Shown here one piece after another: positions 18,967 to 40,771 of a DNA stretch of 64,000 nucleotides (position 1 is its first letter; each line of letters opens with the position of its first letter). The notes below the pieces were generated by a model, which was not told the DNA's origin, searched no databases, and worked only from the letters and a program-made list of their open reading frames with translations. Location: the sequence record OL656110.1; one strand, given 5' to 3'. The position numbers and the translations under genes are program-made. This DNA is from Escherichia phage vB_EcoM-RPN242.

Positions 18967-19896
18967 TTATTCAGAAGAACCATATCGTTCTGTCCATTTA
19001 GGACATTTCAAAGGTTCCCACCCTCTATTGAAACGTTCGATAATGCTGTTTGTCGCATTAAAAGCCTTCAGGTCTTTTGTTCTGTACACATGCATGAGGG
19101 CTTCCGCTCTTTTCATTGTTTTTATTGCTTCAAGGAATTTATCAGCTTTTGACCAATACGCATCATTGTCGGGGTTCCATTTACCCTTCTCCCAAGGCAT
19201 CTTAGCCAACATGCCTTTCTGAGCGTTTTCTTTCTGTTTGGCGCGTTGCTCTGGTGTGAATGAGTTGGTTAAGTCCTTCCCATAATTGGGATTGAGTTCC
19301 CCAAGTTTAGCTTTACTGGCACGTTCAGAAAATTGTTCTAAATCTATGTTGGCGCGGCGTTTCTCTAAAACCCGCCTTTTATATTCAGGATCAGAAGCCA
19401 TCCTTTCATGGATTTTCATCAATCCTTTGGTAATTTTCTTGACTTGCTCTGGGGTTCTCTTATATCCATATTGGGGATTATTCTTTCCTCTTCTCCCATA
19501 CATTGGGTTGTTTGCCCCGACGCATTTGGAGACACCCTTTGTGAGTTTGGATATTCTTTGTCCAAATTCTTTCCTTAACTTTTCGTAAAGGTGAGAATTA
19601 AATTTTATACCCGTTGGTGTATACCTACCCCCACGGCTCATCAAAAGAACAGCATATACCATATCAGAATTCGGGAAAGCCAAGGCCAAGCATACATGGA
19701 CAAGATAATGTTGTCTGCCTGTTAATCGAACCAAATTTATCTTATCTTTAGAATATTCAGGGAACATGCTCTTGGGAAGGATGTGGTGCAATTCAGTGTA
19801 GTCACCATCAGAATATTTGAAAGATTGAACCATCATCAAATACTTCTTGATGAAATGCGGTTTACCGCCTTTAGAAATCAATAATTCGTAAAACAT
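18967..19896 (-). CDS. HNH homing endonuclease with NUMOD-like repeats (free-standing)
   Basis: HNH core TELHHILPKSMFPEYSKDKINLVRLTGRQHYLVH plus repeated NPMYGRRGKNNPQYG motifs; sits between core genes. Confidence 0.8.
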   Translation of the reverse strand: MFYELLISKGGKPHFIKKYLMMVQSFKYSDGDYTELHHILPKSMFPEYSKDKINLVRLTGRQHYLVHVCLALAFPNSDMVYAVLLMSRGGRYTPTGIKFNSHLYEKLRKEFGQRISKLTKGVSKCVGANNPMYGRRGKNNPQYGYKRTPEQVKKITKGLMKIHERMASDPEYKRRVLEKRRANIDLEQFSERASKAKLGELNPNYGKDLTNSFTPEQRAKQKENAQKGMLAKMPWEKGKWNPDNDAYWSKADKFLEAIKTMKRAEALMHVYRTKDLKAFNATNSIIERFNRGWEPLKCPKWTERYGSSE

Positions 19897-19955
19897 AACA
19901 GGAACTCCAAATGAAAGTTCCTGTTATAATATACTTTCTTAACTCACAAAGTAAG

Positions 19956-21149
19956 TTACTTTTTAAATAAATTTAGTAGGTTTTTAGAACCAGATGTCGC
20001 TTTAGGTTGTCCTTCCCCATCGTATCCAACCTTCCCGCGCGGTTTTTTACCTTGCTGTACAGCCTCTACACAACGGGTATATTTCTGAAGTTCACAAAAC
20101 ATATTTTCTCCTGCCATTATATTTAAATGGCGATCCCAAGGCTCTTCCACAGACCAAAATTCTTCCCTGTTATACCCAAGAGGACCATAAACTGCGTCCT
20201 GGTTGTCCCGTAGCCAGAAGATGCATTCTTCGTGGGTCATACCGTCTTTGTTCAGGAACAGCAGATCAATACCTGCGCGACAGCCTGGTCCAGCAACCGT
20301 GAAGTGGTTCTCACTGAAAGGATATTCAGGAATGTAAGTGAAGTCTACCCAGATCTGATAGGCCAGGAATGGACCAAGCCCTTCGATGTCGTCATACATG
20401 CGCTGGTATACTTCCAAAGGAGTACCAAGGCGCAGCAGGTCATGGAAATAATTTGGATACTTGTTGACGAATGCCTTCAGGGAGCGGATGACACGCATTG
20501 GCATGTACGGTTCCCAACCTTCGATGGTGTAGAAGTCCGGCTCTGCTTCGGCTATCGCCTTGGCTTCTTTATAATCCATGTTCTGGGTTGAACCGTCTTT
20601 ACAGATCAGATTCACCATCATCCCACCGAAGCGCTGCTCCTTGTGGTTGACAACCATCTCAGGGAAAGCCAGGCATTGCTTCAGGCCGCCCGTGTTGAAG
20701 GCATTGGTGAATACCTTACCGCCGTCGGCCTCGAACTTCTGAAGTCGTTCGCGGGTTGCATCGAGGTTGATCTCGGCGAATTCTTTGATCGTCATCGCGC
20801 CGCCGATAGCCTGGATTGGATCCCAGAGGTTGAACATGCGGAACATCACGCAGTTGAACATCTTGTCGGCCATACCCAGAGCATCGTTGTTGACAATGTT
20901 GTTGATCAGGTTGAGAGACTGCCTGTCGTGCTCTCTCCGGACATTACAGAACTTGACCTGCCGTAGTATGGGATTATCAGTCCAAGGAGCAGGAAGGCGC
21001 TGGACGTCCTTCTTGACGTGGATCTGATAACGATCGCGCATCCATTCGTAAGACAGGCGGGTATGGGTCGGACTGAGAACCGGTTTGGCCGACTTTATCT
21101 TTTCTTCACGGACACCGCAGTACGGGACGTCTAGGGCTTTATCTTTCAT
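19956..21149 (-). CDS. hypothetical protein (397 aa)
   Basis: ORF with good SD AGAGGA 5 nt upstream; no assignable motif. Confidence 0.65.
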   Translation of the reverse strand: MKDKALDVPYCGVREEKIKSAKPVLSPTHTRLSYEWMRDRYQIHVKKDVQRLPAPWTDNPILRQVKFCNVRREHDRQSLNLINNIVNNDALGMADKMFNCVMFRMFNLWDPIQAIGGAMTIKEFAEINLDATRERLQKFEADGGKVFTNAFNTGGLKQCLAFPEMVVNHKEQRFGGMMVNLICKDGSTQNMDYKEAKAIAEAEPDFYTIEGWEPYMPMRVIRSLKAFVNKYPNYFHDLLRLGTPLEVYQRMYDDIEGLGPFLAYQIWVDFTYIPEYPFSENHFTVAGPGCRAGIDLLFLNKDGMTHEECIFWLRDNQDAVYGPLGYNREEFWSVEEPWDRHLNIMAGENMFCELQKYTRCVEAVQQGKKPRGKVGYDGEGQPKATSGSKNLLNLFKK

Positions 21150-21157
21150 GGTATCCT

Positions 21158-21195
21158 CTTAGAATACGAAAACAGAGGCCATTATAGCCTCTGTT
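21158..21195 (-). terminator. intrinsic terminator after gene 21218..22090
   Basis: 9-bp stem AACAGAGGC/GCCTCTGTT followed on the minus strand by TTCGTATTCT. Confidence 0.5.
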
Positions 21196-21217
21196 GTTTA
21201 GTGAATAACTGTATATC

Positions 21218-22090
21218 TTAATCGATACGGGTCAGTTGGGTGATAGATGATTGCACTGGGCTGGCCACATAGATACGGACGTTGGCTTTCCATTCACCCC
21301 AGATCAACGGCAGAGTTGGGAAGTTGTCTTCATTGAAAACAAACACGGGAATGTAGCTCTCGACTGTTTCGCCAGAGAACGCCTGAAAGCCCATCTTGGT
21401 GTATCCCATGATCTCGTCAATAAAATCGAACGGAGCGAAGGCAACACCAGCGTGTTCGTTAGAACCGAGCTGGCCTGGAATGGCCGTGCCCGTCAGAATG
21501 ATTTCGGTGATCTGGCGCTTAGGCTCGGTGGTCAACATATCAGAGAAGTCAGGCTCTTTGAAGGTTGCCATGTTCTTCAGGAACTTGCCAGCCGGGTACT
21601 CTTTGCCGTCGACAGTGATGGTGTCCACCACTTTGATGCACGCCTGAGGGAATTCCCCTTCGATGCGCAGACTTTCGCGTGGGAAGCCTTTGTTGTAGTA
21701 GTAATCCAGTGCAGGCACAACTTCACCTTCATTACGGATGAACTTGCTCATGTTAGAGGCATACACGCGCTGTAGGCATTCGTCACCGTCGAAACCAGCA
21801 ATATGAGCCACACCGTCGTTGACTGTTGTGATGTCGCCCTGGGCGTCCATGATCTGGCGCATGATGTCTTTGATGTCGACAACAACGGGTTCTTTCAGGA
21901 CTCGCGGAGATGCAGTGAACTCAATTTTCACCTCGTGGTCGAAATACGCCGCTTCCAGCAGTTCACGGGTTTCTTCCAGCACCAGTTTCGCCTGATTGCG
22001 GATCTTACCAAAGTCGGGCGATGTGACGTCGCCCTTTGCATTACCGAAAGCCAGATTCAGATTCACGTTCTTGGAAAATGTAGTTGTCAT
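21218..22090 (-). CDS. hypothetical protein (290 aa)
   Basis: ORF with SD GGAG; followed by a terminator hairpin at 21171-21195. Confidence 0.6.
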   Translation of the reverse strand: MTTTFSKNVNLNLAFGNAKGDVTSPDFGKIRNQAKLVLEETRELLEAAYFDHEVKIEFTASPRVLKEPVVVDIKDIMRQIMDAQGDITTVNDGVAHIAGFDGDECLQRVYASNMSKFIRNEGEVVPALDYYYNKGFPRESLRIEGEFPQACIKVVDTITVDGKEYPAGKFLKNMATFKEPDFSDMLTTEPKRQITEIILTGTAIPGQLGSNEHAGVAFAPFDFIDEIMGYTKMGFQAFSGETVESYIPVFVFNEDNFPTLPLIWGEWKANVRIYVASPVQSSITQLTRID

Positions 22091-22106
22091 AATATAGCGA
22101 CTCCAG

Positions 22107-22571
22107 TTATTCGCTTTTTGCCTTTGTAGGCCGGATGATGTATTTTGGAACCAGCTTCCATTCAGGAACCTGATCGTGTTTAACCACTTTAATGCGAGAC
22201 ATATCGGCTGCTTCGGTGACCTGCTCAGGATGAATGACCTTCACCATGTTCCACTGCTCCAGCAGCTTGATGATTCGGTTCATCCTCAGGACATCTTCGC
22301 GGTTAAATCCGTTGTAATGCCCGTCCAGCATAAATAGATGCTTAAAGTGGACGATATAATACTTACCACACTTATGAAGAATATGGCAAGTCTGATACAG
22401 AGTATTCGGCTCTTGGCGCGTGTTTACCCCAATTCGACTCAGTGTTTCCTTGATCCCCAGAAATATACCTGGCCGATCTTGGTTCAATTGAACTTCAACC
22501 ATACAATCAACGATGCTGGCCTCATCGTTGACTGCTGAAATATTCAATATGTCTAGCGTATTACGCGCCAT
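22107..22571 (-). CDS. regA: translational repressor RegA
   Basis: KETLSRIGV...LYQTCHILHKCGKYYIVHFKHLFMLDG...EWKLVPKYIIRP matches T4 RegA blocks; SD AAGGGGA upstream of ATG 22571. Has an N-terminal extension of about 30 aa relative to T4. Confidence 0.75.
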   Translation of the reverse strand: MARNTLDILNISAVNDEASIVDCMVEVQLNQDRPGIFLGIKETLSRIGVNTRQEPNTLYQTCHILHKCGKYYIVHFKHLFMLDGHYNGFNREDVLRMNRIIKLLEQWNMVKVIHPEQVTEAADMSRIKVVKHDQVPEWKLVPKYIIRPTKAKSE

Positions 22572-22600
22572 GACTCATTCCCCTTTTACAATAGTTTGAA

Positions 22601-23023
22601 CTATTTAGCCTTGCGCGGTTTCGCTTTGGCGTTCAGCTCAGTGCGTCTCATCTTCTCGCGTATCTCGGCCAGGACTTCCTTCGGCAAGAAACGGACGTAC
22701 TCCGATGCCTTCTCCATGCTGATGTAGAAGTACTCTGAGAGTAACTTCACGTCAGGATCAATCGGACCTTTCTTAGACCATTTATCGTAGCGTTTCCGAG
22801 CCGGAATGGTGTAAAAGGCATATGACCATTGCATCCATGGAGTGATAGCATGTAGCTTATTCATCTGTTGCGCAGCCACTAGAGTGTCTTTGCTCTGAGC
22901 TAAACCACGCCGCGTCATAAACGGGTCGAATCCTTTCAACACTTCTGGGTCATCAGACCGCAAAAGGTTTTCTTTGCTGCTGTTCAGAGCAGCCAGGTAA
23001 TCGAACAATCCAAGGGCGGCCAT
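22601..23023 (-). CDS. 62: clamp-loader small subunit (T4 gp62-like)
   Basis: IPARKRYDKWSKK resembles T4 gp62 VPRGKRYGKWAK; start overlaps the gp44 stop, as in T4. Confidence 0.65.
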   Translation of the reverse strand: MAALGLFDYLAALNSSKENLLRSDDPEVLKGFDPFMTRRGLAQSKDTLVAAQQMNKLHAITPWMQWSYAFYTIPARKRYDKWSKKGPIDPDVKLLSEYFYISMEKASEYVRFLPKEVLAEIREKMRRTELNAKAKPRKAK

Positions 23024-23027
23024 AATA

Positions 23028-24017
23028 TCACTTCCACTTGATGTTGAGCATGACATTGGTCAGGAAAAACACGGCATGCAGCCAGACATCGCCGACTTGA
23101 CGGTGTTCAATCTGAGACTGACCACATACGCATACCAGATCAGGGATAGACTCATTCTGAACCAACATTTGCTTCTCTTTATCCTGTGGTACACAGAACT
23201 GGAAGAAGCGGGAATAGAAGTCTTCAGTGATATAGTTCTGGTTGTCGGTCACCCACTGCTTCATCCCAGCCCAGTCATTATCCTTCAACATATCCACCAA
23301 CATGCCCATATCGGCCGATTTTAACACAGCCAGTGCACGTTCGTCAATCTTGCCGTAAGTGGTGACGTTATCCTGTAGAACACCCATGATGCGGCGGTTA
23401 TCAGGGAAATGGCGCTTGACAATAGCAGCCAACACAGGAGGGTCATACTCAACACCTTCGCAGCGAAGGATTTCAGCACAGCGGCGCATGAACTGAAGTT
23501 TGACCTCATCAGCCTCGGTCTCATTCCAGATAAAGTCGATTTCACGGCAACGAGAGCGCAGAGGTTCGTTCACACGTTGCTTGGCGTTGGTGGTCAGGAT
23601 GAATGAACAGTTCTTGGAGACCTTCTCCACAATACCCTTCAGCGACTCCTGTGCCGCCATAGACAGACGCTCTACTTCGTCGAGGATAACGACTTTGCGA
23701 CCACCGAATACGCTCACACCAGTAGAGTACTGAATCACGCGGTCACGGATAACGTCGATGCTGTTGTCCAGGGATGCGTTGATCATCAGTGGTTGCTTAC
23801 AACCGATTTCATTACACACGGCCAGGGCGGAGGTAGTCTTGCCAGTACCAGGCTGAGGGGAGTAGAACAGCATAGACGGGATGTTGCCGTTGCCGCTGGT
23901 GATGTAGCCATGGATTTTAGCGCGGACGTCTTGAGGGATGATAATCTCGTCCAGGTTGTCAGGGCGGAAGCGGTTTTCCCATGCATACTGGTCTTTTACA
24001 ATTGTGATATTAGACAT
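23028..24017 (-). CDS. 44: clamp-loader AAA+ ATPase (T4 gp44-like)
   Basis: Walker A SPQPGTGKTT, DEVE Walker B and sensor motifs; SD GAGG. Confidence 0.85.
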   Translation of the reverse strand: MSNITIVKDQYAWENRFRPDNLDEIIIPQDVRAKIHGYITSGNGNIPSMLFYSPQPGTGKTTSALAVCNEIGCKQPLMINASLDNSIDVIRDRVIQYSTGVSVFGGRKVVILDEVERLSMAAQESLKGIVEKVSKNCSFILTTNAKQRVNEPLRSRCREIDFIWNETEADEVKLQFMRRCAEILRCEGVEYDPPVLAAIVKRHFPDNRRIMGVLQDNVTTYGKIDERALAVLKSADMGMLVDMLKDNDWAGMKQWVTDNQNYITEDFYSRFFQFCVPQDKEKQMLVQNESIPDLVCVCGQSQIEHRQVGDVWLHAVFFLTNVMLNIKWK

Positions 24018-24037
24018 TTTCAGCCTCGTGTAGAAGA

Positions 24038-24068
24038 ATCATTTCAAATAGGCGGGGAACGCCCCGCC
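24038..24068 (-). terminator. hairpin/terminator between gp45 and gp44 genes
   Basis: GGCGGGG-aacg-CCCCGCC hairpin with a moderately T-rich tail. Confidence 0.4.
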
Positions 24069-24098
24069 CACACATTATAGCATCAGGCTGGAGATTGA

Positions 24099-24767
24099 TT
24101 ACTCAATCTGTGCGCCGACGAAGTAATTGATCGTCGCGTCGGATGATTGGAAGTTCACCATCTGTAGATCAGCACAGGCACGCAGAGTGTAGTTGCCTTC
24201 GATCATTTTCAGGTTGGCAACATCCAGCGGCATTACGAAGTCCGGCAGCGCGGTTTCGCCCAGCTCAACAGTGTAGTTGTTGGAGTTGTCCAAGGTAGTG
24301 GTGGTTGCAACCAGGCGAGTTTTGCCACCCTGAGCAACCAGGCGCACAGTCTTGTGTCCGAGGGTAGAGCAGGCGCGGGTCAGTTCTTTCATCTTCTCTG
24401 GAGTGATGATCGCTTCAAAGTCAACAGACGGCAGTTCAATGGTGTCAGCCGGGACAACCGTGAGTTCTTTAGCAGAACGCCAGAATTGCAGCTGAGAGCT
24501 TTCGCCTTTCAACAGGATGTAGTCCTGATGGAATTCGGCTTTGGCACCTTTGAAGGAAGGTAGGCGCTGGATGGCCAGAAGTTTGGTCAGGTCCAGAATC
24601 GGGAACTCAAACGGGAAGTCTTCTTCGATCTGCGCCACGGCGATCACAGTAGAAGAATCATTAATACTGCGCAGCATCTTACCCGGTGTCAGAACGATAG
24701 ATGGGTTGATGGTCTCAAAGTTGGCCAGCAACTGAAGTGTACGTTCGGAGAGAGTGATCTCTTGCAT
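24099..24767 (-). CDS. 45: sliding clamp (T4 gp45-like)
   Basis: 222 aa; N-terminus LLANFETINPSIVL parallels T4 gp45 LLKNFATINSGIML; gene order 45-44-62-regA matches T4. Confidence 0.8.
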   Translation of the reverse strand: MQEITLSERTLQLLANFETINPSIVLTPGKMLRSINDSSTVIAVAQIEEDFPFEFPILDLTKLLAIQRLPSFKGAKAEFHQDYILLKGESSQLQFWRSAKELTVVPADTIELPSVDFEAIITPEKMKELTRACSTLGHKTVRLVAQGGKTRLVATTTTLDNSNNYTVELGETALPDFVMPLDVANLKMIEGNYTLRACADLQMVNFQSSDATINYFVGAQIE

Positions 24768-24898
24768 TTGTATGTATCCTCAAAATATAGTGGGGGTTCA
24801 AGTCATGTTTGACGCAATCTAGTATCGCTGTGTTTTGTTTATAGAACAAGTGGCAAATTGCGCTACGCGTTATTAATAAATGCCTTCGGCATTTATGG

Positions 24899-24952
24899 AC
24901 TTTATTAAAGATAATAACCTTTATTAAAGATAATAATCTTTATTAATCCTAT
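24899..24952. repeat. tandem direct repeat (about 2.5 copies of a 20-bp AT-rich unit)
   Basis: ACTTTATTAAAGATAATAAC / CTTTATTAAAGATAATAATC / TTTATTAATCC, within a 360-bp AT-rich intergenic region. Confidence 0.7.
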
Positions 24953-24979
24953 TCGCTTCGCTCATAAAACAAATACTCG

Positions 24980-25009
24980 TTGTTCGCTAACGCTCACAAC
25001 TCGTATAAT
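24980..25009 (+). promoter_or_regulatory. sigma70-like promoter candidate for the plus-strand gene at 25129
   Basis: TTGTTC, 18-nt spacer, perfect TATAAT, about 120 nt upstream of the start. Confidence 0.4.
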
Positions 25010-25128
25010 ACCACGCCATTGTTCAACAAGAAAGCAGTTTTTATTCAACAGCAAAATTAATTTATTTGGTCTAAACATGCACGCGAAATAATATGTATGT
25101 CATGTTAACCAACACACGAGAGTAATAT

Positions 25129-25500
25129 ATGAAACAGTTCGTAGGTTTATACGCAGTCGGGTGTAGTAAGCCAGACGCCAACCTCACCACAGGTCAATTT
25201 ATCACAGGCACCCCAGTTTATCTGACACAGCTGGCGTCAGACAAGAACTTACCATCGGAACCGCGATTTGTCCCCCTTGGCTTGATGACAGGCCTGAAAG
25301 TTGGTCTGTATGTCGGCGTTGTGACGTTTGAAAACGGCATCGAAGCGAAGGTTCTGCCATTCAAATTGGGTAGTGAACAAATGCTGAAGGATACGATCAG
25401 TGAACACCTGAACTCACAATGTCTGGCTTCTCTGGATAAATTGTTCGGCGTAGTATCTGATGAAGGCGAGGCCACCCCCGCCTATGTGAATCAAGATTAA
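25129..25500 (+). CDS. hypothetical protein (plus strand; possible lipoprotein)
   Basis: 123-aa ORF with SD GAGAG; N-terminus MKQFVGLYAVGC carries a lipobox-like AVGC. Confidence 0.55.
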   Translation: MKQFVGLYAVGCSKPDANLTTGQFITGTPVYLTQLASDKNLPSEPRFVPLGLMTGLKVGLYVGVVTFENGIEAKVLPFKLGSEQMLKDTISEHLNSQCLASLDKLFGVVSDEGEATPAYVNQD

Positions 25501-32646: not shown

Positions 32647-32653
32647 TGTTCTT

Positions 32654-34126
32654 TTAGTTCAAGACATATTTGATCAGTCCACAATTCCAAATCCTGACCA
32701 ACCCGGCTTCGGTTGCTAACTGGCTTTCTGTTTTGCCTTCTACGTCATACCCCATGCGAGCAAATGAACCTTTTCTGAAACCGAATTTGTGCTCACGCAT
32801 AAATGTGCCAGGCTTGTGATATTTGTAGTCTGGCTTCTGTACTTCCTCTTCTATGAATCCGTGGGATAGGTAAATGTTGGACAACCTGCTTACAACACAC
32901 CTATCCCCAAAGGAATAGATTTTGGTGTCGGCAAATTTTCTTCTGAAGTGTGAAAGAAGTTTACTGAATGCCCCGTGGCAATCATTAGAGGCAAATCTGA
33001 CTAATTCCAGGCCATCTTTCCTTTTAGTGAATAGCATCACGGCTTGTATGACCCCACTCTTGTCAATTAACGATAAATGGTGGGTGGAAGAAACGGAACC
33101 TTGTATGTGGTGGTTGTCTAAAAACTCCCTCAAGCCGCTTATATTTCCCCAAACGACTTTGTGTTGGCGAGCATATGACGCAGGCGTTTTAATGCCAAGT
33201 TTAGCTTTCAGAAGAGATTTGACCACTTCCTGTTTCTCAACCCATTCATCTTCCCAGATGTGGATCAACTGGATACCCTGAGATTCACATATTTCAGTCT
33301 TTTCCAGGTGATAATATTTCTCTTTAAAAACTTCTGAATGCCAGTACAGGCCATTAAATTCAATCGCCAATTTGTGTTCAGGGCAATAGATATCCAGTTG
33401 TTTACCGGATAATATACTGTAATCAGAAACAGTGTTTACAACTCCCATTGAGGTGAGAAACTCGGATATTTCCTTTTCATAAGAAGATTTCTTGTTCCTG
33501 ATAGAACCATTGCTGAACAACGCACGTTTTAGTATGTTCGAGTTTTTCATAGGGTTGTCAACACCATAACGTTCTTGTAACGTTGCCAACGCCTTCTCCC
33601 TCACACCAGGTAATTGTAGTGTGGAGCAGCTTCCGTATTTGGATATATTCGAAGTCTCTATGGCTTTCCGACCAATCCCACCTTTACACATAGAAACCTG
33701 ATAACATTCTTCAGAACAATATGTTCTGTAATCTTTATTATTGATATAAAAGTTGGTTTCCTTGGAACACACCGGGCATATTTTCACGGTTCTATTGTAC
33801 AGCCAAGCTGTGACTTTACAAGCCAAATCTTGTAGGGTGTTGTGGGTATTGGCGAACGCTAAAAGGTCTACATTGATGTGCTTCATAAGCAGTTCAGATT
33901 TGCATTTTTGGATATCCAATTTGTTGTTCTTGGTAAACATATATTTGTAGAAAAATTGGCGATATGATTCCTCGTCAGACAATTCATTCACTGCTTCAAG
34001 GAAACCTTCCGGGAGGTTCTTTAGGGTGTTCGATGCGAAGGTCTTGCAAGCATCTGAACAAAATTTCTTATCTTTCCTGGATGCTTTGAACTGTTCATGG
34101 CAGACACTACAGATTACCTGATACAT
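32654..34126 (-). CDS. zinc-ribbon plus restriction-endonuclease-like (Vsr/DUF559-type) protein; putative free-standing homing endonuclease
   Basis: N-terminal CxxC pairs; C-terminal LAIEFNGLYWHSE...IHIWEDEW resembles the Vsr/PD-(D/E)XK core. Strong SD GGAGGAGA upstream of ATG 34126. Inserted just downstream of the major capsid gene. Confidence 0.45.
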   Translation of the reverse strand: MYQVICSVCHEQFKASRKDKKFCSDACKTFASNTLKNLPEGFLEAVNELSDEESYRQFFYKYMFTKNNKLDIQKCKSELLMKHINVDLLAFANTHNTLQDLACKVTAWLYNRTVKICPVCSKETNFYINNKDYRTYCSEECYQVSMCKGGIGRKAIETSNISKYGSCSTLQLPGVREKALATLQERYGVDNPMKNSNILKRALFSNGSIRNKKSSYEKEISEFLTSMGVVNTVSDYSILSGKQLDIYCPEHKLAIEFNGLYWHSEVFKEKYYHLEKTEICESQGIQLIHIWEDEWVEKQEVVKSLLKAKLGIKTPASYARQHKVVWGNISGLREFLDNHHIQGSVSSTHHLSLIDKSGVIQAVMLFTKRKDGLELVRFASNDCHGAFSKLLSHFRRKFADTKIYSFGDRCVVSRLSNIYLSHGFIEEEVQKPDYKYHKPGTFMREHKFGFRKGSFARMGYDVEGKTESQLATEAGLVRIWNCGLIKYVLN

Positions 34127-35553: not shown

Positions 35554-35644
35554 GATGGTCATTCCTTACATTGATATTCAGTTAAGTTGAAATTACTTAG
35601 TAGTTCAAAATCAAGCCCCCTTTCGAGGGCTGTGGCTGCTAAAA

Positions 35645-36496
35645 TTAGCCGTTGATGCCGAAGCGACGATTATAGTCGGCCAACTGACGCTTGATAGATT
35701 CTTTCAGCTCTTTGTCTGTTTCATCTTCATCGTCATCTTCATCGCCTTCTTTCTTAGGCTTTTTGCCTTCGGCTTTAACATCTTTGTTGTCGTCATCGCC
35801 GTCTTTACCGCCGACTTTGTCCTGGAAGTCATCGTCATCGTCATCGCCTTCTTTCTTCACGGACTTACCTTCTACCAGGTTGCGGAAGGTGTGTACGCGG
35901 GAAGCGAATTCGCTTTCGGTGGTGAACTGCACAGCTTCCAGCAGATTGACAACCGTTGCTTTCTTGGTGTCGACCATACCTTCACAGATACGGGCGATCA
36001 CAGAGTCACGCAGAGTCGCATTCGCGGCTTCTTTGATTTGACGGTTTTCGCTTTCGGCAATCGCAGCACGTCGTTCTGCTTCGGTCAGGCGGGCAGTCAG
36101 CGCAGCGATCTGGCCGTTTTCGTCGGTGGCAAAGTTGATACCAGCTTCTTTCAGAACACCAGTCAGGCCAGTCAGCAGATTTTCAGCCGCTTCACGTTTG
36201 ATCTGAGCATCGATTCCAGGAGCGTTCTTGTTAGCCCACTCTTCTACAACAGCATTCAGGAAGCCATCGACTTTGGTCGCGATTTCCATCAAGTGAGACT
36301 CTTTCAGCTGAGCAATCTCAGCCTGATGAGCTTCAACCAGACGCAGGCGCTCAATGTTGGCAGCGTTTTCGGTTTCTTGAATAGCGTTCAGGCGAGCGGC
36401 TTCTACTTTAGATTCCAGCAGACCAGACACTTTATCCAGGAAGTCGGTGCTGAGGCCGTTAACGCCCTCAAACAGTTTTTGCAATTCAGGTTTCAT
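35645..36496 (-). CDS. 22: prohead scaffold protein (T4 gp22-like)
   Basis: Coiled-coil, highly acidic protein with a DDDDDD/EDDDEDE C-terminal tail; located between protease and capsid genes. Confidence 0.7.
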   Translation of the reverse strand: MKPELQKLFEGVNGLSTDFLDKVSGLLESKVEAARLNAIQETENAANIERLRLVEAHQAEIAQLKESHLMEIATKVDGFLNAVVEEWANKNAPGIDAQIKREAAENLLTGLTGVLKEAGINFATDENGQIAALTARLTEAERRAAIAESENRQIKEAANATLRDSVIARICEGMVDTKKATVVNLLEAVQFTTESEFASRVHTFRNLVEGKSVKKEGDDDDDDFQDKVGGKDGDDDNKDVKAEGKKPKKEGDEDDDEDETDKELKESIKRQLADYNRRFGING

Positions 36497-36523
36497 GATT
36501 GTTTCCTTCTGAACGATTTTCAG

Positions 36524-36530
36524 TATTTAG
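36524..36530 (-). promoter_or_regulatory. late-promoter-like motif CTAAATAC upstream of scaffold gene
   Basis: About 27 nt upstream of ATG 36496. Confidence 0.45.
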
Positions 36531-36541
36531 TGAGGCTGAAT

Positions 36542-37207
36542 TCAGCCCAGATGTTTCAATGCGATATCGAGGCGGCGCAGGAAGTCGTCTTCTAACTGAA
36601 TATTGGTTTTCACCAATGAATCGACCACATGCCCCTTAATGTCCTTAGGAACCCAAATTCCTGAAGATTCATCAAGCTGCCATTCCACAGATTCGCTCAC
36701 AGCCTTTACATAACAAACTTGTCCAGAAGGACGGTCGACTGCATCAACAGCAGTGAGCATAAAGCCGGGTTGAACGTCATCATAGCCGTTCACTGACTTG
36801 GTCTCACCAAGGCCACGTGTAGACACGGCCAGGTTGAAGTCTGCTTCAGCCAGAGCACGAATGATCTGACCTTTCGGTGTATTCAGGATCCGCGCTCGAC
36901 CGATAGCGTTGGTGCCTTCCCAGCGCAAAGATTCGGTTTTGAGTGCAGCGTGTTCGATATCGGGGAAAGGATAATCCGGATGCTTGAGTTCACCGATTGC
37001 ACGACGATCCTGGATATACTCTTTGTCGTATGCTTCGACAGCAGGGATACCCACCTTTTGGAGATCGTAGTTGCGACCATTACGGTTCACCTGGTTACAC
37101 ATCACGAATGGACCTTCGATGTACATGGCCTTGCCGCCAGTAGCCGTGGCCGCTTCACCAATCTGAAGATCTTTCCCTATCGCAGTGATCTCACGCAACA
37201 GTTTCAT
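36542..37207 (-). CDS. 21: prohead core protease (T4 gp21-like)
   Basis: 221 aa at the gp21 position; SD AAGGAG. Confidence 0.75.
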   Translation of the reverse strand: MKLLREITAIGKDLQIGEAATATGGKAMYIEGPFVMCNQVNRNGRNYDLQKVGIPAVEAYDKEYIQDRRAIGELKHPDYPFPDIEHAALKTESLRWEGTNAIGRARILNTPKGQIIRALAEADFNLAVSTRGLGETKSVNGYDDVQPGFMLTAVDAVDRPSGQVCYVKAVSESVEWQLDESSGIWVPKDIKGHVVDSLVKTNIQLEDDFLRRLDIALKHLG

Positions 37208-37217
37208 CATTCGCTCC

Positions 37218-37523
37218 TTAACTCAGTCCCATCATACGACGGAACTTCATTGCTTTTTTCTTACGACGCTCGATTTTGCGCTGGTATCCCATACCCATGC
37301 GTTTCTTGGCTCGGATCGCCTTGCGGTTGCCCAGCTTGCGAGTACGGCGCTCACTGGCGACCATCACCTCACAACGGGAACCATCCGCAGACAGTTTGAA
37401 ACCAGGAGCACACTGAAGACGGCGACGGCGTTTGCCTTTTGCGTTCACCTTGTCAATGACTTTCTGCTCATCCATGCGGGAAGCCAGGAAATCAGCGAAC
37501 GTTGCAACTTCTTCGATTTCCAT
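37218..37523 (-). CDS. prohead core / internal basic protein (gp68-like by position)
   Basis: 101 aa with a very basic C-terminus (KGKRRRRL...RRKKKAMKFRR); SD AAGAGGAA. Confidence 0.5.
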   Translation of the reverse strand: MEIEEVATFADFLASRMDEQKVIDKVNAKGKRRRRLQCAPGFKLSADGSRCEVMVASERRTRKLGNRKAIRAKKRMGMGYQRKIERRKKKAMKFRRMMGLS

Positions 37524-37535
37524 GATACATTCCTC

Positions 37536-37706
37536 TTACTGGTCGTCGCCGAAAGGACCCATGTCTTGGCTCAGGGAGTTCAAGACATATTCAGTACCCT
37601 GCTGGACCAGTTCTTGGGCGCGAGCGGACAGCTCCATTTCGCATTCAGCAGCAGCGGCATCAGTATCACCAGCGATGATTGCTTTTACCAGATCGATAGC
37701 GGCCAT
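37536..37706 (-). CDS. small acidic prohead core protein (gp67-like by position)
   Basis: 56 aa from the ATG with SD AGAGGA at 7 nt; positioned between the portal and core genes. Confidence 0.4.
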   Translation of the reverse strand: MAAIDLVKAIIAGDTDAAAAECEMELSARAQELVQQGTEYVLNSLSQDMGPFGDDQ

Positions 37707-37743
37707 GTTCATATCCTCTAAATGTTTTCTATACTTAGTCGAA

Positions 37744-39438
37744 TTATTCTTCACCACCAGGAGGGTTAGTCGCTGGGATGACGTTAGGTCTGAATTTCAG
37801 TGGACTGACTTCCCCGCTGCCGAAGCCGCCGGACTCATCTGCCTGCACTTCAGGGTATTTGCCTTCTTTCTTCTCTTTCGCGATCTTCTCTTGCTGGTCT
37901 TTGATGTCTTCATCGGACATACGCAGCAAATTGCGTTGAGCAAAATCGATAGAGAAGAGAGTGCCGATATATGGTTCGATCTGACCGAGAGCCGCCATAC
38001 GCTGTGACAAGATTTCGTTCTCTTGTTGTTCACGGATGAAGCTGTCAGAAGTGAATTCGAACTTGACGAACGGCTTGATCTTCTCATTCCAGTCAGCCTG
38101 ATCTGTAATGCCTTTCAATATCAGTTGACGGCGCAGAAGTTCCAGGAAGATACCAGAAGAATAACGACGGCGCAGGCTCGCACAGAACTTGTTGAAGCGC
38201 AGTTCTTCCTGTGTGATTTCAGCAAGATTGGAACCACCGATGTTGATGGAACCTTCCTCTTGCAGGCGGCTCTTAGGGATCATCAGAGCCTCGTAGAGCT
38301 TCTCGCGGAAGTATACCACATGATCCATTTGACCCAGTTGATCGCCACCGCCTACGTTGGAGATCTCGGTTGCGTTCTGCCCTTCGCGACGTGGTAGCCA
38401 GTAGTCCTCAGCGATACCCATCAAATGAGTGTTACCAGCCACCTTACCAGTGGTGCGATCATACGCCAGGCGGTTCTTGAATTTGCCCATCATGGCTTGC
38501 ATGTATTCTTCGGCCGACTTCTTACCCAGCGTACCCACGTCGAGATAGAAAGCTCGCTTCTCAGGAGCACGTGTGATCGCATAGATCACCGTTGCATCTT
38601 CAGTTGTAACAAGGTTGTTCAGGGGACGGATAGCTGGGTTCAGCAGGCTTGGTACAACCCCATTCGCCAGAGGCTCTTCACCACTGTCCAGATACACTAT
38701 GCTCTCATCATCAAACACCAGCTCTTGCTGTGACGGTTGGAAGTTCTGAGACGTACCGGACTGGCCAGTGAATTGGTTGCGGTTGTAGTTCGGGTTGTAG
38801 TAGTATTGAAGTTTTACGTCATTGATGACTTCGATACCGTCGCGCATCGCCTTTTGAACGATGTACACTGGGCGGATACAGCGTGAGTCCATCATGATGA
38901 GTTTGGCGATACCCGCTTTCTTGTTCTTCGGGTCCACTACAACGTGGAATGCCTGACGGCCTTCAATATACCATTTGCGGATCTTCTGATACGCTGTGTT
39001 GTCAAAGTCAAGGAGATGCATGATCTCTTTGAATGCGTCAGTGATCTTCTCTTTGACTTCGTCTGTGATGCCATCTACCTTTTCCAGGTTGATGGTTACA
39101 GGAGTCTCTTCCTCTTCACAAGTGACGACGTCGTTGACAATGATATCCACAGCCTTACGAATCTCAGGCTGCTGAGCCATAGACTGGTACTCTTCGACCA
39201 GCTGTTTGACGTTGAGCAACTCATTCTCAACACCAACGAAATTGAATGTGTTCGCGCCGCCCTGGAGGATGATGGAACCATCCTGAGAATCGTCCAGCGC
39301 AACAACAGTCGCTTTTGAAAGCAACTTCTCTTCTTGGTTCGTGACCATCTTGTCGGTATCAATCGGCGCTTCTACTTTGCCGCCTCTGCCGAACAAGCCG
39401 AAGAACCCATTTCCGAATGCACCATTACCGAATGCCAT
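37744..39438 (-). CDS. 20: portal vertex protein (T4 gp20-like)
   Basis: 564 aa, Gly-rich N-terminus, SD TGAGGA; at the T4 gene 20 position. Confidence 0.8.
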   Translation of the reverse strand: MAFGNGAFGNGFFGLFGRGGKVEAPIDTDKMVTNQEEKLLSKATVVALDDSQDGSIILQGGANTFNFVGVENELLNVKQLVEEYQSMAQQPEIRKAVDIIVNDVVTCEEEETPVTINLEKVDGITDEVKEKITDAFKEIMHLLDFDNTAYQKIRKWYIEGRQAFHVVVDPKNKKAGIAKLIMMDSRCIRPVYIVQKAMRDGIEVINDVKLQYYYNPNYNRNQFTGQSGTSQNFQPSQQELVFDDESIVYLDSGEEPLANGVVPSLLNPAIRPLNNLVTTEDATVIYAITRAPEKRAFYLDVGTLGKKSAEEYMQAMMGKFKNRLAYDRTTGKVAGNTHLMGIAEDYWLPRREGQNATEISNVGGGDQLGQMDHVVYFREKLYEALMIPKSRLQEEGSINIGGSNLAEITQEELRFNKFCASLRRRYSSGIFLELLRRQLILKGITDQADWNEKIKPFVKFEFTSDSFIREQQENEILSQRMAALGQIEPYIGTLFSIDFAQRNLLRMSDEDIKDQQEKIAKEKKEGKYPEVQADESGGFGSGEVSPLKFRPNVIPATNPPGGEE

Positions 39439-39503
39439 GATTAAGTCCTCAACATTTTCTTGTAATTAGTGAGGGGGAATAAGATCCCCCAGCACTGAGG
39501 ACA

Positions 39504-40037
39504 TTAGAGAGACTTGTCTGAGATGGCCTGGAAGTAACGCAGGTCAACAGTGAACTGAGTATAAGAGTCCATTGCAGACATGTCCAGTTCCAGCTGACCG
39601 AGGTTCTGAGGCCAGGCACCCTGAAGGGTCCAGGTCTTGGTGACGTTGTCATTCGCATCCAACAGTTCCATGATTACATCACGGAAATAATCATCTGGGT
39701 TAGCAGACGCACGGTTGTTGTTGCTGCCGTTGATATACTGCTGCCAGACTTCGAATGCGTTGTACGGGGCGTTGTCCACGACGTTGATGAACGTCACAGG
39801 CAGAGCCTCGAAGCGGCGGTCACCTGGGAATGGAAGTTCACGACCACCCCATGGGACGAGTATTTCCCCGAGCTGGCCTGTTGGGGTATTTGTGGTCACC
39901 GCCAACAGCGAAACATCACGGATAGTATCGCTTCCAGCCACGAAGGAAGGGAAGTTAACAGTCACACGCCAACGGTGTTGGCGCTGAACGCCACCCCCGC
40001 GTGACATAGCTGCTCTGAATTCATTAACTGTAGCCAT
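39504..40037 (-). CDS. 19: tail tube protein (T4 gp19-like)
   Basis: 177 aa; C-terminal GAWPQNLGQLELDMSAMDSYTQFTVDL parallels T4 gp19 GLWPTNVGELQLDWDSNNEIQTFEVTL. Confidence 0.8.
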   Translation of the reverse strand: MATVNEFRAAMSRGGGVQRQHRWRVTVNFPSFVAGSDTIRDVSLLAVTTNTPTGQLGEILVPWGGRELPFPGDRRFEALPVTFINVVDNAPYNAFEVWQQYINGSNNNRASANPDDYFRDVIMELLDANDNVTKTWTLQGAWPQNLGQLELDMSAMDSYTQFTVDLRYFQAISDKSL

Positions 40038-40057
40038 TATAGATTCTCCAGAAAGAG

Positions 40058-40771
40058 TTACACAATTCTAATTAGCTGCCAACCCGTCGTGTTCAAACGC
40101 TCTGCGGTCGCAGTTTTCCTATGATACACAGACGGTGGTGGAACTGGAATACCCTTGTCGATGTAATCATAGAGTGCTGAATATTTAAGTCCCAACCTCT
40201 CCACGTATTCGCGACAATTCCCGTGGATTTCGTATTCTTCGCCGGATGGAGATACCAATTTGAATCGCTTGGCATGACCGTTGTTCTTGCCCTTTCTGAT
40301 TCCAGTTTCAATGCATTTTCGACTAAATGATAATTTACCTTCTTCTTTCCATTCAACCCCGATCCGACAGCTAATGATTTCTCCTGTTTTCCACCGTGGA
40401 TCATCGCAATCAACTAAACCGAGATGTTCACCAGTAGAAGTCAAAACTGCTCCGTGTTTATTGGAAAATGTGGACCCGTCTCCACCCCAGGTCTTGTTGT
40501 ACCCTTTCTGAGTTGACATGTGGGTTCCGTGTTGCTTTATAAGAATGATTTCCAATTCTTTTAGATCTTCCAGGGATTTGGTCTGGGCTAACACTTGAAC
40601 AGAAAAGGACTCTTCTCCGTACTTTCTTATTGCTTGGTGAATAAAGTAATCAGATCCCTTCTGAGCACTATTGCAGTGCTCCCACCACCTTTGCATAGGG
40701 TCTCTCGTCGTTATCCCAATATAGGCTTTCTGATTGACTAGATTTGTAATTTTGTAAACACTTCCGATCAT
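40058..40771 (-). CDS. GIY-YIG homing endonuclease (free-standing, between tail tube and sheath genes)
   Basis: N-terminal GSVYKITNLVNQKAYIGIT...RWWEH is a classic GIY-YIG module; 237 aa. Confidence 0.8.
   Translation of the reverse strand: MIGSVYKITNLVNQKAYIGITTRDPMQRWWEHCNSAQKGSDYFIHQAIRKYGEESFSVQVLAQTKSLEDLKELEIILIKQHGTHMSTQKGYNKTWGGDGSTFSNKHGAVLTSTGEHLGLVDCDDPRWKTGEIISCRIGVEWKEEGKLSFSRKCIETGIRKGKNNGHAKRFKLVSPSGEEYEIHGNCREYVERLGLKYSALYDYIDKGIPVPPPSVYHRKTATAERLNTTGWQLIRIV

What the first reader, a model, noticed from the sequence alone, without database searches (positions are those of the whole stretch)
18967..40771. Three different free-standing homing-endonuclease-like genes inserted between core genes
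An HNH/NUMOD gene (18967..19896) lies in the replication region, a zinc-ribbon plus Vsr/DUF559-like gene (32654..34126) lies directly downstream of the capsid gene, and a GIY-YIG gene (40058..40771) lies between the tail tube and sheath genes. Together with the terminase intein, the window carries four selfish-element insertions of four distinct catalytic families.
Basis: partly seen in the sequence, partly recalled or inferred. Interest (0 to 1): 0.4.

Follow-up and report, generated by a model that had tools for sequence, protein, structure and literature searches.

The report
Three homing endonuclease genes in phage
This ViI-like (Ackermannviridae) phage carries three real free-standing homing-endonuclease genes of three nuclease families plus an old, fixed mini-intein in its terminase, which is ordinary and already-described biology for this phage family.

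Summary

Each gene is sporadic among about 280 relatives (about 14%, 8% and 23% carry the same gene at the same site). Clean empty or differently filled sites exist. Flank identity drops next to A and C, as expected for co-conversion during homing.

The terminase intein is real (C116-N274, inside Walker A). It is a 159-aa mini-intein with no endonuclease domain, has background GC, and is present in essentially all relatives, so it is fixed, not mobile.

Homologues are already named in Dickeya phage LIMEstone1 (the F-Lim series), so novelty is low.

Two side observations are less ordinary. At site A, an HNH and a GIY-YIG domain alternate on one shared C-terminal module. Hef-type enzymes carry a highly conserved C-terminal Mom-like GNAT domain that I could not find described.

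The parts
18967..19896 (-). HEG A: free-standing HNH + NUMOD3 homing endonuclease gene (309 aa)
   Evidence: PHROG 655 at 4e-61 and NUMOD3 above the Pfam cutoff. GC 0.400, z = -4.1. Absent from YX22, ZQ1, Ag3 and ViI, among others.
19627..19896 (-). HNH (beta-beta-alpha-metal) nuclease domain of A, residues 1-90; motif E35, H37, H38, N54, R61, H63, H67
   Evidence: These residues are invariant in 8 diverse homologues. The domain profile hits the HNH domain of the 6ME0 maturase at E = 0.003. The AF2 model gives beta 34-38, beta 55-59 and helix 60-73 at pLDDT 80-93. Homologue P0010 carries Pfam HNH.
18970..19512 (-). C-terminal NUMOD3 and putative DNA-binding module of A (residues 129-309), shared with the GIY-YIG enzyme F-LimVI
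   Evidence: 65% identity over 183 aa to P0008 (F-LimVI), roughly 90% over the last ~120 aa. F-LimVI occupies the same site in RC-2014.
19894..19928 (-). 15-bp RNA hairpin burying the GGAG Shine-Dalgarno sequence and the AUG of HEG A
   Evidence: -20.4 kcal/mol, z = -4.86, 0 of 200 shuffles fold as well; the same hairpin is present in phiD3.
18975..20016 (-). A cassette relative to YX22: HEG A, its leader, and a replacement 3' end for the hmdU kinase gene
   Evidence: 1,042 bp here against about 80 bp in YX22. The junction shares TTATTCAG, which serves as the HEG stop here and the kinase stop in YX22. The kinase C-terminus is recoded and shorter.
20017..20816 (-). Divergence gradient in the kinase gene next to A (likely co-conversion tract and likely target region)
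   Evidence: Identity to YX22 per 100 bp runs 80, 67, 94, 95, 93, 91, 94, 96, then 97-99%.
32654..34126 (-). HEG B: free-standing Hef-type (EDxHD, Vsr-like) homing endonuclease gene (490 aa)
   Evidence: PHROG 3339 at 2.5e-156. 87% identical to F-LimVII (P0018). GC 0.407, z = -3.9. Replaces 724 bp in MK-13.
33704..34111 (-). N-terminal region of B with two zinc ribbons (C6/C9/C23/C27 and C117/C120/C137/C141) and a helical linker
   Evidence: The cysteines are conserved in the homologues that have this region. Weak YacG hits. The AF2 model has pLDDT around 90.
33197..33487 (-). Vsr-like PD-(D/E)xK nuclease domain of B (residues 214-310); E217, D245, N258, H263 (plus invariant E256, H273, K276, D293)
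32657..33181 (-). C-terminal Mom-like GNAT-fold domain of B (residues 316-490)
40058..40771 (-). HEG C: free-standing GIY-YIG homing endonuclease gene (237 aa)
   Evidence: Pfam GIY-YIG at 5e-9 and TIGR01453 above its cutoff. Matches the I-TevI catalytic domain. GC 0.431, z = -2.8.
40472..40771 (-). GIY-YIG catalytic domain of C (residues 1-100): Y6, Y17, R28, H32, E74, N92
   Evidence: These align with I-TevI Y6, Y17, R27, H31, E75, N90.
40081..40818 (-). C cassette relative to the empty site in Shigella phage Gloob
   Evidence: 738 bp here against 2 bp in Gloob. LHE287 has an unrelated 1.2-kb insert with two small ORFs. CBA120 has a truncated 152-aa orthologue.
40827..41026 (-). Diverged 3' end of the sheath gene next to C (likely co-conversion tract or target region)
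   Evidence: 88-89% identity to LHE287 over 200 bp, then 97-100% beyond; the other flank is 97-100%.
44209..44685 (-). Mini-intein (159 aa, C116-N274, +1 T275) splitting the Walker A motif of the large terminase
   Evidence: The exteins align contiguously with T4 gp17 (SRQLGK-TTVVA). Boundaries are given. Weak intein HMM hits. Present in essentially all relatives. GC 0.497.
42802..45030 (-). Large terminase subunit gene (742 aa precursor) hosting the intein
   Evidence: Terminase_6N and Terminase_6C domains; gp17 structures 3EZK and 3CPE match at about 1e-64.

Best explanation
The three genes are free-standing homing endonuclease genes (HEGs): selfish nuclease cassettes lodged between essential phage genes.

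Inferred mechanism, based on the T4 seg/mob/hef paradigm. During co-infection with a relative that lacks the cassette, the enzyme cuts that genome in or near the conserved neighbouring gene. For A the likely target is the 3' end of the hmdU kinase gene; for C, the 3' end of the sheath gene; for B, the region downstream of the capsid gene. Recombinational repair then uses the HEG-carrying genome as template and copies in the HEG together with some flanking DNA (co-conversion). The carrier's own flank is diverged and therefore resistant to cutting.

The enzymes. A is an HNH nuclease joined to NUMOD3 and a helical DNA-binding module. Its translation is probably held off by a hairpin over its ribosome-binding site and start codon, as in T4 HEGs. 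B is a Hef-type member of the Vsr-like EDxHD family, with N-terminal zinc ribbons and a C-terminal Mom-like GNAT domain. C is an I-TevI/Seg-like GIY-YIG enzyme with a C-terminal DNA-binding extension.

The terminase intein is a different kind of element. It is an ancient mini-intein that has lost any endonuclease domain, persists by protein splicing, and is inherited vertically across the family.

Shown here: gene integrity, family membership by sequence, fold and catalytic residues, sporadic distribution, clean insertion junctions, flank-divergence gradients, and absence of introns. Inferred only: enzymatic activity, the exact cleavage sites, present-day mobility, and the regulatory role of the hairpin.
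For: Family assignment. Conserved catalytic residues. Compositional foreignness (GC z = -4.1, -3.9, -2.8).

Presence/absence. The same gene occupies the same site in about 40/281, 23/288 and 65/279 records. The empty site for A is in YX22 and for C in Gloob. Alternative occupants occur at all three sites: the GIY-YIG enzyme F-LimVI at A in RC-2014; a 621-aa Hef variant at B in PC3, small ORFs in MK-13 and an unrelated ORF in SS3; unrelated ORFs at C in LHE287, a truncated orthologue in CBA120 and F-LimVIII in LIMEstone1.

Co-conversion-like identity gradients next to A and C. Hairpin over the ribosome-binding site. No group I intron.

Literature. LIMEstone1 has 14 HEGs in GIY-YIG, HNH and Hef-like groups, including F-LimVII downstream of its capsid gene (PMC3296691). 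Hef-type enzymes are placed in the EDxHD family (PMC3239194).

Intein.
Against: No cleavage or homing was measured; everything rests on sequence and models.

A has no Pfam or NCBIfam HNH hit of its own, and the whole-chain Foldseek search of its model found nothing.

In B, the fifth EDxHD residue (I-Bth0305I D222) aligns to the variable E275, which is E in only 20 of 44 homologues.

Some form of GIY-YIG gene at site C is very widespread in the family, so that lineage is old and partly degenerate. Part of the pattern could therefore reflect vertical inheritance with losses.

The flank-divergence gradients could also come from ordinary mosaic recombination.

These phages have hypermodified thymidine, and whether the enzymes cut such DNA is unknown.
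Confidence: 0.85

Rival explanations
1. The genes are relics or domesticated descendants of HEGs. They are no longer mobile and are kept because they help the phage in another way, for example by cutting competitor genomes (marker exclusion) or by acting as DNA-binding regulators.
For: A GIY-YIG gene at site C is nearly ubiquitous in the family and is truncated to 152 aa in CBA120-like phages, which shows long residence and decay. B and C are 97-99% identical in YX22, consistent with plain vertical inheritance among close relatives. Domesticated HEG domains are documented in other phages (PMC10055350).
Against: The window's copies are full length with all catalytic residues and DNA-binding modules. 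The closest relative lacks A, and the junction is clean with a flank-divergence gradient. Strongly deviant GC content argues against long amelioration in this genome. Marker exclusion is in any case a consequence of HEG activity, not an alternative to it.
Confidence: 0.1
2. B is not simply a homing nuclease. It is a bifunctional enzyme whose Mom-like GNAT domain chemically modifies DNA, or flips out and reads a base. This could protect the carrier genome or define the target, making B a single-chain cut-and-modify element.
Against: Mom's catalytic S124 has no conserved counterpart, and R151 is displaced in B. B itself gives no Pfam Mom hit. The profile-to-sequence comparison is statistically weak. 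GNAT folds are often reused as inert scaffolds. I-Bth0305I works without such a domain.
Confidence: 0.15
3. The three ORFs are ordinary accessory ('moron') genes that happen to contain nuclease-like motifs and were gained by illegitimate recombination, with no endonuclease-driven mobility.
For: The same intergenic sites also hold unrelated small ORFs in LHE287, MK-13 and SS3, so these are general hotspots for insertion.
Against: All three belong to families with experimentally proven homing members: I-TevI and Seg for C, Hef and I-Bth0305I for B, HNH Mob-type for A. They show strong profile or fold matches and conserved active sites. Different nuclease families recur at the same sites in different phages, which is typical of HEG turnover.
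Confidence: 0.03

Closest known systems
Free-standing HEGs of Dickeya phage LIMEstone1 (F-LimI to F-LimXI; Adriaenssens et al. 2012, PMC3296691)
   Same: Same phage family and gene order, and the same three enzyme groups (GIY-YIG, HNH, Hef-like). F-LimVII is 87% identical to B and sits at the same place downstream of the capsid gene. The annotators of phage XF4 label the gene at site C 'F-LimII'.
   Different: The window has 3 HEGs in 64 kb and no intron-borne ones, against 14 in the LIMEstone1 genome. At site A many Dickeya phages carry the GIY-YIG enzyme F-LimVI instead of the HNH enzyme. LIMEstone1 has F-LimVIII, not C, near the tube gene.
I-Bth0305I and the EDxHD (Vsr-like) homing endonuclease family, including phage Hef (Taylor et al. 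2011, PMC3239194; Sandegren et al. 2005)
   Different: I-Bth0305I is intron-encoded, 266 aa long, and has N-terminal NUMOD/HTH motifs with the nuclease at the C-terminus. B is free-standing, 490 aa long, and has zinc ribbons and KYGV-type repeats at the N-terminus plus an extra C-terminal Mom-like GNAT domain.
I-TevI and the T4 Seg proteins (GIY-YIG homing endonucleases)
   Same: C's N-terminal ~100 aa match the I-TevI catalytic domain, with Y6, Y17, R28, H32, E74 and N92 in place. It has a two-domain layout with a C-terminal extension, and TIGR01453 scores above its cutoff.
   Different: C is free-standing, not intron-encoded. Its C-terminal 140 aa match no described DNA-binding family.
HNH homing endonucleases with NUMOD modules (T4 Mob-type, I-HmuI-type)
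   Same: A has the HH...N...H...H motif on a predicted beta-beta-alpha unit followed by NUMOD3 repeats, and occupies an intergenic position next to a conserved DNA-metabolism gene.
   Different: A is too diverged for the Pfam HNH models. It has no CxxC zinc site in the HNH domain, and only 15 detectable homologues in 5.8 billion proteins.
Mini-inteins in phage large terminase subunits (annotated in phages Maynard and Magnus)
   Same: Cys1, a terminal His-Asn and Thr+1; inserted in the ATPase P-loop; the same element is annotated as 'intein' in relatives.
   Different: Unlike canonical mobile inteins it has no LAGLIDADG or HNH endonuclease domain, and it is fixed across the family.

Membership tests
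HNH (beta-beta-alpha-metal) homing endonuclease: gene A | HNH motif: catalytic His on strand 1, Asn before strand 2, metal-ligand His on the helix | tested here: met
   E35, H37, H38, N54, R61, H63 and H67 are invariant in 8 homologues at 29-82% identity. The motif aligns with the HNH domains of the 6ME0 maturase (E = 0.003) and pyocin AP41.
HNH (beta-beta-alpha-metal) homing endonuclease: gene A | beta-beta-alpha fold | tested here: inconclusive
   The AF2 model shows beta 34-38, beta 55-59 and helix 60-73 at pLDDT 80-93. The whole-chain Foldseek search gave no significant match. The isolated domain could not be searched.
HNH (beta-beta-alpha-metal) homing endonuclease: gene A | Match to a curated HNH profile | tested here: not met
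   No Pfam or NCBIfam HNH hit for A or its N-terminal domain, even at E <= 10. Homologues P0010 and P0012 do hit PF01844. PHROG 12434 'HNH endonuclease' scores 7e-18.
HNH (beta-beta-alpha-metal) homing endonuclease: gene A | Nuclease-associated DNA-binding module (NUMOD) | tested here: met
   NUMOD3 at 25.3-27.5 bits, above the 20.4 cutoff.
EDxHD / Hef-type Vsr-like homing endonuclease: gene B | Vsr-like PD-(D/E)xK fold | tested here: met
EDxHD / Hef-type Vsr-like homing endonuclease: gene B | Active-site residues E170, D196, N208, H213 and D222 of I-Bth0305I | tested here: inconclusive
   E217 (43/44), D245 (44/44), N258 (39/44) and H263 (44/44) are conserved. D222 aligns to E275, which is E in only 20 of 44. 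Other invariant residues are E256, H273, K276 and D293. Four of five are met; the fifth is uncertain.
EDxHD / Hef-type Vsr-like homing endonuclease: gene B | Homology to named Hef-like phage enzymes | tested here: met
   87% identity to F-LimVII; 43-44% to F-LimIII and F-LimX. These are classed as Hef-like in PMC3296691.
EDxHD / Hef-type Vsr-like homing endonuclease: gene B | I-Bth0305I-type architecture (N-terminal NUMOD/HTH, C-terminal nuclease) | tested here: not met
   B has two zinc ribbons and a partial DUF7487 at the N-terminus, and an extra Mom-like GNAT domain at the C-terminus.
GIY-YIG homing endonuclease: gene C | Curated GIY-YIG profile match | tested here: met
   PF01541 at 36.7 bits (cutoff 22.6); TIGR01453 at 59 bits (cutoff 56.05).
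GIY-YIG homing endonuclease: gene C | Catalytic residues (I-TevI Y6, Y17, R27, H31, E75, N90) | tested here: met
   Y6, Y17, R28, H32, E74 and N92, by alignment to 1MK0 and 1LN0.
GIY-YIG homing endonuclease: gene C | Separate C-terminal DNA-binding domain | tested here: inconclusive
   About 140 aa follow the catalytic domain but match no family. The CBA120 orthologue lacks the last ~105 aa.
Free-standing homing endonuclease gene (all three) | Not inside an intron or intein; own translation signals; lies between intact genes | tested here: met
   No Rfam family, including group I introns, reaches threshold in the 64-kb window. Flanking genes are complete. Ribosome-binding sites are visible.
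Free-standing homing endonuclease gene (all three) | Sporadic presence/absence among close relatives with precise junctions | tested here: met
   alternative occupants.
Free-standing homing endonuclease gene (all three) | Site-specific cleavage of the HEG-less allele and super-Mendelian inheritance | not testable with these tools
   Needs enzyme assays and phage crosses. The only indirect support is the flank-divergence gradients.
Intein (HINT): terminase insert | Splice-junction residues (Cys/Ser1, terminal His-Asn, +1 Cys/Ser/Thr) and contiguous exteins | tested here: met
   C116, H273-N274 and T275. The exteins rejoin as ARQSGK-TTVVA, against SRQLGK-TTVVA in T4 gp17.
Intein (HINT): terminase insert | Curated intein profile match | tested here: inconclusive
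   Intein_splicing at 28.8 bits (cutoff 35.8), TIGR01445 at 19.3 (cutoff 24.5), TIGR01443 at 12.9 (cutoff 15.6). All fall in the right places but below their cutoffs.
Intein (HINT): terminase insert | Embedded homing endonuclease domain and sporadic distribution (i.e. a mobile intein) | tested here: not met
   Only 159 aa, with no LAGLIDADG or HNH motif. The region is covered in one piece in essentially all 274 relatives. GC content equals the background.
Mom family (GNAT-fold DNA-modifying enzyme): C-terminal domain of B | GNAT fold and Pfam PF25680 match | tested here: inconclusive
   The fold criterion is met. Seven of 14 homologous domains hit PF25680, and full-length homologues score 28-35 bits against a 27.1 cutoff. 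B itself gives no hit.
Mom family (GNAT-fold DNA-modifying enzyme): C-terminal domain of B | Mom's essential residues R111, S124, D149 and R151 | tested here: inconclusive
   R111 aligns to R377 and D149 to D408 (and Y159 to Y419). S124 has no conserved counterpart, and R151 is displaced in B. The alignment is statistically weak (residues from PMC13219725).

The most novel reading that the evidence does not exclude
Hef-type (EDxHD) homing endonucleases, a family with about 1,900 detectable members of which gene B is one, are not just a nuclease plus a DNA-binding region. They carry a C-terminal Mom-like GNAT domain that is the best-conserved part of the protein and keeps several of Mom's essential active-site residues. 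This domain may be functional: a base-flipping reader of the target, or a DNA-modifying activity coupled to cleavage. I found no paper that describes it. Separately, site A shows an HNH and a GIY-YIG domain swapped onto one shared target-binding module at a single locus.
Probability: 0.2. Interest if true: 0.55.

Novelty: already known. Interest (0 to 1): 0.2.

Why it matters
For genome annotation, this tells curators that three 'hypothetical proteins' in YX22-like phages are homing endonucleases. It also tells them that the terminase precursor needs its 159-aa intein removed to give the mature enzyme.

Biologically it adds a clean example of the HEG life cycle in Ackermannviridae, a family used for biocontrol and phage therapy. 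The stages seen are invasion (A, absent from the nearest relative), replacement (sites B and C), truncation (CBA120) and loss (Gloob). HEG-driven co-conversion shapes the mosaic structure of these genomes.

None of this is surprising to a specialist. The two side observations could be worth a small follow-up because they bear on how homing endonucleases acquire new specificities and functions. These are the nuclease-domain swap on a shared DNA-binding module and the conserved Mom-like GNAT domain in Hef-type enzymes.

Tried and rejected
1. Pfam and NCBIfam scans of A and of its isolated N-terminal domain found no HNH model, even at E <= 10. The assignment had to come from a family alignment and a profile search against solved-structure sequences.

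2. A whole-chain Foldseek search of A's model found only noise, because long flexible helices dominate the model. The tool cannot search a sub-domain.

3. A sequence search of A against the PDB returned spurious coiled-coil hits only.

5. hhalign of that profile against the Mu Mom sequence gave a weak score. I used it only to map residues.

6. I searched the window for further HEGs using phmmer with A, B and C against all 372 six-frame ORFs, plus GIY-YIG, HNH and LAGLIDADG motif scans. Nothing further turned up.

7. The Rfam scan found no introns. The only sub-threshold hit is the A hairpin mis-scored as a miRNA precursor.

8. The sigma-70 promoter scan around A was not above shuffled expectation. 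The leader's T4-late-promoter-like TATATTATAA deviates from the TATAAATA consensus, so a late promoter is only a guess.

9. The hairpins upstream of B (z = -1.0) and C (z = -3.2, but the fold overlaps the sheath terminator) were not convincing.

10. The original Hef paper (PMC1275590) is not held in the library.

11. I rejected the idea that the intein is a fourth mobile insertion.

Full report
WHAT THE WINDOW IS. The region has T4-like structural and replication genes: gp23 capsid, gp20 portal, gp19 tube, gp18 sheath, gp17/gp16 terminase, gp44/45 clamp loader and clamp, and a UvsW helicase. It also has a 5-hmdU DNA kinase. Megablast places it in Ackermannviridae, subfamily Aglimvirinae. The closest records are Escherichia phages YX22, LHE287, vB_EcoM-ZQ1 and AV101, at 95-99% identity in the structural region. 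Window 24018-53679 is collinear with YX22 at 98.3% identity.

THE OBSERVATION. The three ORFs are at the stated coordinates on the minus strand with the stated neighbours. Each lies in a compositional trough. GC content is 0.400 (A), 0.407 (B) and 0.431 (C), against 0.498 +/- 0.024 for 38 other ORFs, giving z = -4.1, -3.9 and -2.8. Third-position GC is 0.41-0.46, against 0.58-0.61 in the flanking genes. No other HEG-like ORF was found in the window, and no Rfam family, including group I introns, reaches threshold. The genes are therefore free-standing.

GENE A (18967-19896, 309 aa).
- Family hits: PHROG 655 'homing endonuclease' at 4e-61 and NUMOD3 above the Pfam cutoff.
- The HNH domain is too diverged for Pfam or NCBIfam, so I tested it another way. 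Only 15 homologues exist in 5.8 billion proteins. In those that have the N-terminal domain, the residues E35, H37, H38, N54, R61, H63 and H67 are invariant.
- A profile of this domain hits the HNH domain of a group II intron maturase (6ME0, E = 0.003; TEIHHILPK...DNLV...H...H) and, weakly, the pyocin AP41 DNase.
- The AF2 model shows strand-strand-helix at exactly those positions with pLDDT 80-93.
- Homologue P0010 carries Pfam HNH.
- A whole-chain Foldseek search was uninformative.

Site A junction.
- YX22 has no gene here. Window 18975-20016 (1,042 bp) replaces about 80 bp in YX22.
- The left junction shares TTATTCAG. This reads as '...GSSE*' at the end of HEG A in the window and as '...KKPE*' at the end of the kinase gene in YX22. 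The window's kinase has a recoded, shorter C-terminus. The cassette therefore entered inside the 3' end of the kinase gene and brings a substitute 3' end with it.
- Identity to YX22 in the kinase gene runs 80, 67, 94, 95, 93, 91, 94, 96 and then 97-99% per 100 bp moving away from the cassette. The other flank is 95, 92 and then 98-100%. This is the pattern expected from co-conversion with a diverged donor, and it points to a target in the kinase 3' end (inference).
- A 15-bp hairpin (19894-19928; -20.4 kcal/mol; z = -4.9) pairs both the GGAG and the AUG of the HEG. T4 uses the same device to keep HEG translation off in read-through transcripts (established knowledge; Edgell et al. 2010, cited). 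Its function here is inferred.

GENE B (32654-34126, 490 aa).
- Homology: PHROG 3339 at 2.5e-156 and 87% identity to LIMEstone1 F-LimVII. Adriaenssens et al. class F-LimVII as 'Hef-like' and place it downstream of the capsid gene (PMC3296691).
- Sequence search hits I-Bth0305I (3R3P, E = 0.003). Taylor et al. 2011 already place Hef-type phage enzymes in this Vsr-like 'EDxHD' family (PMC3239194).
- E217, D245, N258 and H263 correspond to I-Bth0305I E170, D196, N208 and H213 and are conserved in 39-44 of 44 homologues. The fifth residue, D222, aligns to the variable E275. E256, H273, K276 and D293 are also invariant.
- This domain holds 16 of the family's 24 invariant columns. In a statistically weak profile-to-sequence alignment, Mom's essential R111, D149 and Y159 fall on R377, D408 and Y419. 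The catalytic S124 has no counterpart (residues from PMC13219725). I found no paper that links Hef-type enzymes with Mom or GNAT domains.

Site B occupancy. The same gene is present in about 23 of 288 records. MK-13 has two small ORFs (724 bp) in place of the window's 1,535 bp. SS3 has an unrelated 215-aa ORF. PC3 has a 621-aa Hef-type variant with the same nuclease and Mom-like core (55% overall, near-identical over the last ~85 aa) but more N-terminal 'KYGV' repeats.

GENE C (40058-40771, 237 aa).
- Pfam GIY-YIG and TIGR01453 are both above their cutoffs. The gene matches the I-TevI catalytic domain, with Y6, Y17, R28, H32, E74 and N92 in register with I-TevI Y6, Y17, R27, H31, E75 and N90.
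- Relative to Shigella phage Gloob the cassette is a clean 738-bp insertion (40081-40818 against 2 bp).
- LHE287, 98-99% identical in the flanks, has an unrelated 1.2-kb insert with two small non-nuclease ORFs.
- Against LHE287 the sheath 3' end is only 88-89% identical for 200 bp and then 97-100%; the tube side is 97-100%.
- About 65 of 279 records carry C's type. Most Kuttervirus and Taipeivirus phages have a shorter GIY-YIG gene here. CBA120 orf195 (152 aa) is 44% identical to C residues 5-132 and lacks the C-terminal ~105 aa. LIMEstone1 has F-LimVIII instead.
- The site therefore shows invasion, truncation, replacement and loss.

THE INTEIN. The 742-aa terminase aligns with T4 gp17 in two blocks that abut at the Walker A lysine: ARQSGK|C116...N274|T275TVVA against SRQLGK-TTVVA. 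The insert is 159 aa (window 44209-44685) and has weak intein HMM hits in the right places. It is too short for an endonuclease domain, has background GC content (0.497), and is covered in one unbroken piece in essentially all 274 related records. It is annotated 'intein' in phages Maynard and Magnus. It is a fixed mini-intein, not a current mobile insertion.

MECHANISM. The evidence fits the standard model for free-standing HEGs. The enzyme cuts the HEG-less allele in a neighbouring conserved gene during co-infection. Recombinational repair then copies the HEG and adjacent markers, and the carrier is protected because its own flank has diverged. Integrity, family, active sites, distribution, junctions and gradients are shown here. 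Activity, cut sites and regulation are inferred.

SIDE OBSERVATION AT SITE A. F-LimVI of the Dickeya phages (P0008, 261 aa) shares A's C-terminal 183 aa at 65% identity (roughly 90% over the last ~120 aa). Its N-terminus is GIY-YIG-type, with weak SegE_GIY-YIG and GIY-YIG hits, and it is listed as GIY-YIG in PMC3296691. It occupies the same site directly downstream of the kinase gene in RC-2014, while phiD3 has the HNH type there. This looks like a nuclease-domain swap on a common targeting module. Domain shuffling among phage HEGs has been reported in general terms (PMC10055350).

VERDICT. The biology is already described for this phage family, so interest is low (0.2). The Mom-like domain of Hef-type enzymes and the HNH/GIY-YIG swap are modest leads worth a follow-up.

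Noticed in passing
window 18970-19512 (C-terminal module of gene A); L006 1504-2289 (RC-2014); L005 2603-3526 (phiD3): Nuclease-domain swap at one locus. The HNH enzyme A and the GIY-YIG enzyme F-LimVI share a C-terminal NUMOD3/DNA-binding module (65% identity over 183 aa, roughly 90% over the last ~120 aa). They occupy the same site downstream of the hmdU kinase gene in different phages.
   Followed up: partly
window 32657-33181 (residues 316-490 of gene B): Hef-type (EDxHD) homing endonucleases carry a C-terminal Mom-like GNAT-fold domain. It is the most conserved part of the family and retains counterparts of Mom R111, D149 and Y159 but not S124. I found no description of it in the searchable literature.
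   Followed up: partly
window 19894-19928, minus strand: A 15-bp hairpin (-20.4 kcal/mol, z = -4.9) buries the Shine-Dalgarno sequence and the AUG of HEG A. An AT-rich TATATTATAA element overlaps its 5' arm and resembles, imperfectly, a T4 late promoter. The hairpin is also present in phiD3.
   Followed up: partly
window 24018 (between the gp44 clamp-loader and gp45 clamp genes); L001 11737-12392: YX22 carries an extra 655-bp gene (218 aa, 'hypothetical') inserted precisely between the clamp-loader and clamp genes; the window lacks it. It may be another mobile cassette. I did not analyse it.
   Followed up: no
window 15058-15170; L001 1436-3850: YX22 has about 2.4 kb here (a nicotinamide phosphoribosyltransferase gene and an 855-bp gene), where the window has about 110 bp. 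This is an indel in the auxiliary-metabolism region.
   Followed up: no
window 53680-64000: Four large minus-strand ORFs (741, 807, 849 and 709 aa) have low GC content (0.42-0.45), and nucleotide similarity to YX22 is lost beyond 53679. These are probably exchanged tail-spike/host-range genes typical of Ackermannviridae. I did not run domain searches on them.
   Followed up: no
L009 1355-3220 (phage PC3, site B): A 621-aa Hef-type variant at site B has the same nuclease and Mom-like core as B but several additional N-terminal 'KYGV...' repeats (DUF7487). This suggests that repeat expansion in the presumed DNA-binding region changes specificity.
   Followed up: partly
L004 2140-3389 (phage LHE287, site C): The tube-sheath intergenic site holds two small non-nuclease ORFs (100 and 118 aa; GC 0.42) in LHE287 instead of a HEG. 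The site is therefore a general insertion hotspot.
   Followed up: partly
window 17175-17574: A 400-bp patch inside the conserved 672-aa gene is only 85-94% identical to YX22, within otherwise 98-100% identical sequence. It looks like a small recombination or mosaic tract unrelated to the HEG junction.
   Followed up: no
window 24768-25128: A very AT-rich (GC about 0.35) intergenic region lies between the minus-strand gp45 gene and a plus-strand 123-aa ORF (25129-25500). It is probably a divergent promoter region.
   Followed up: no
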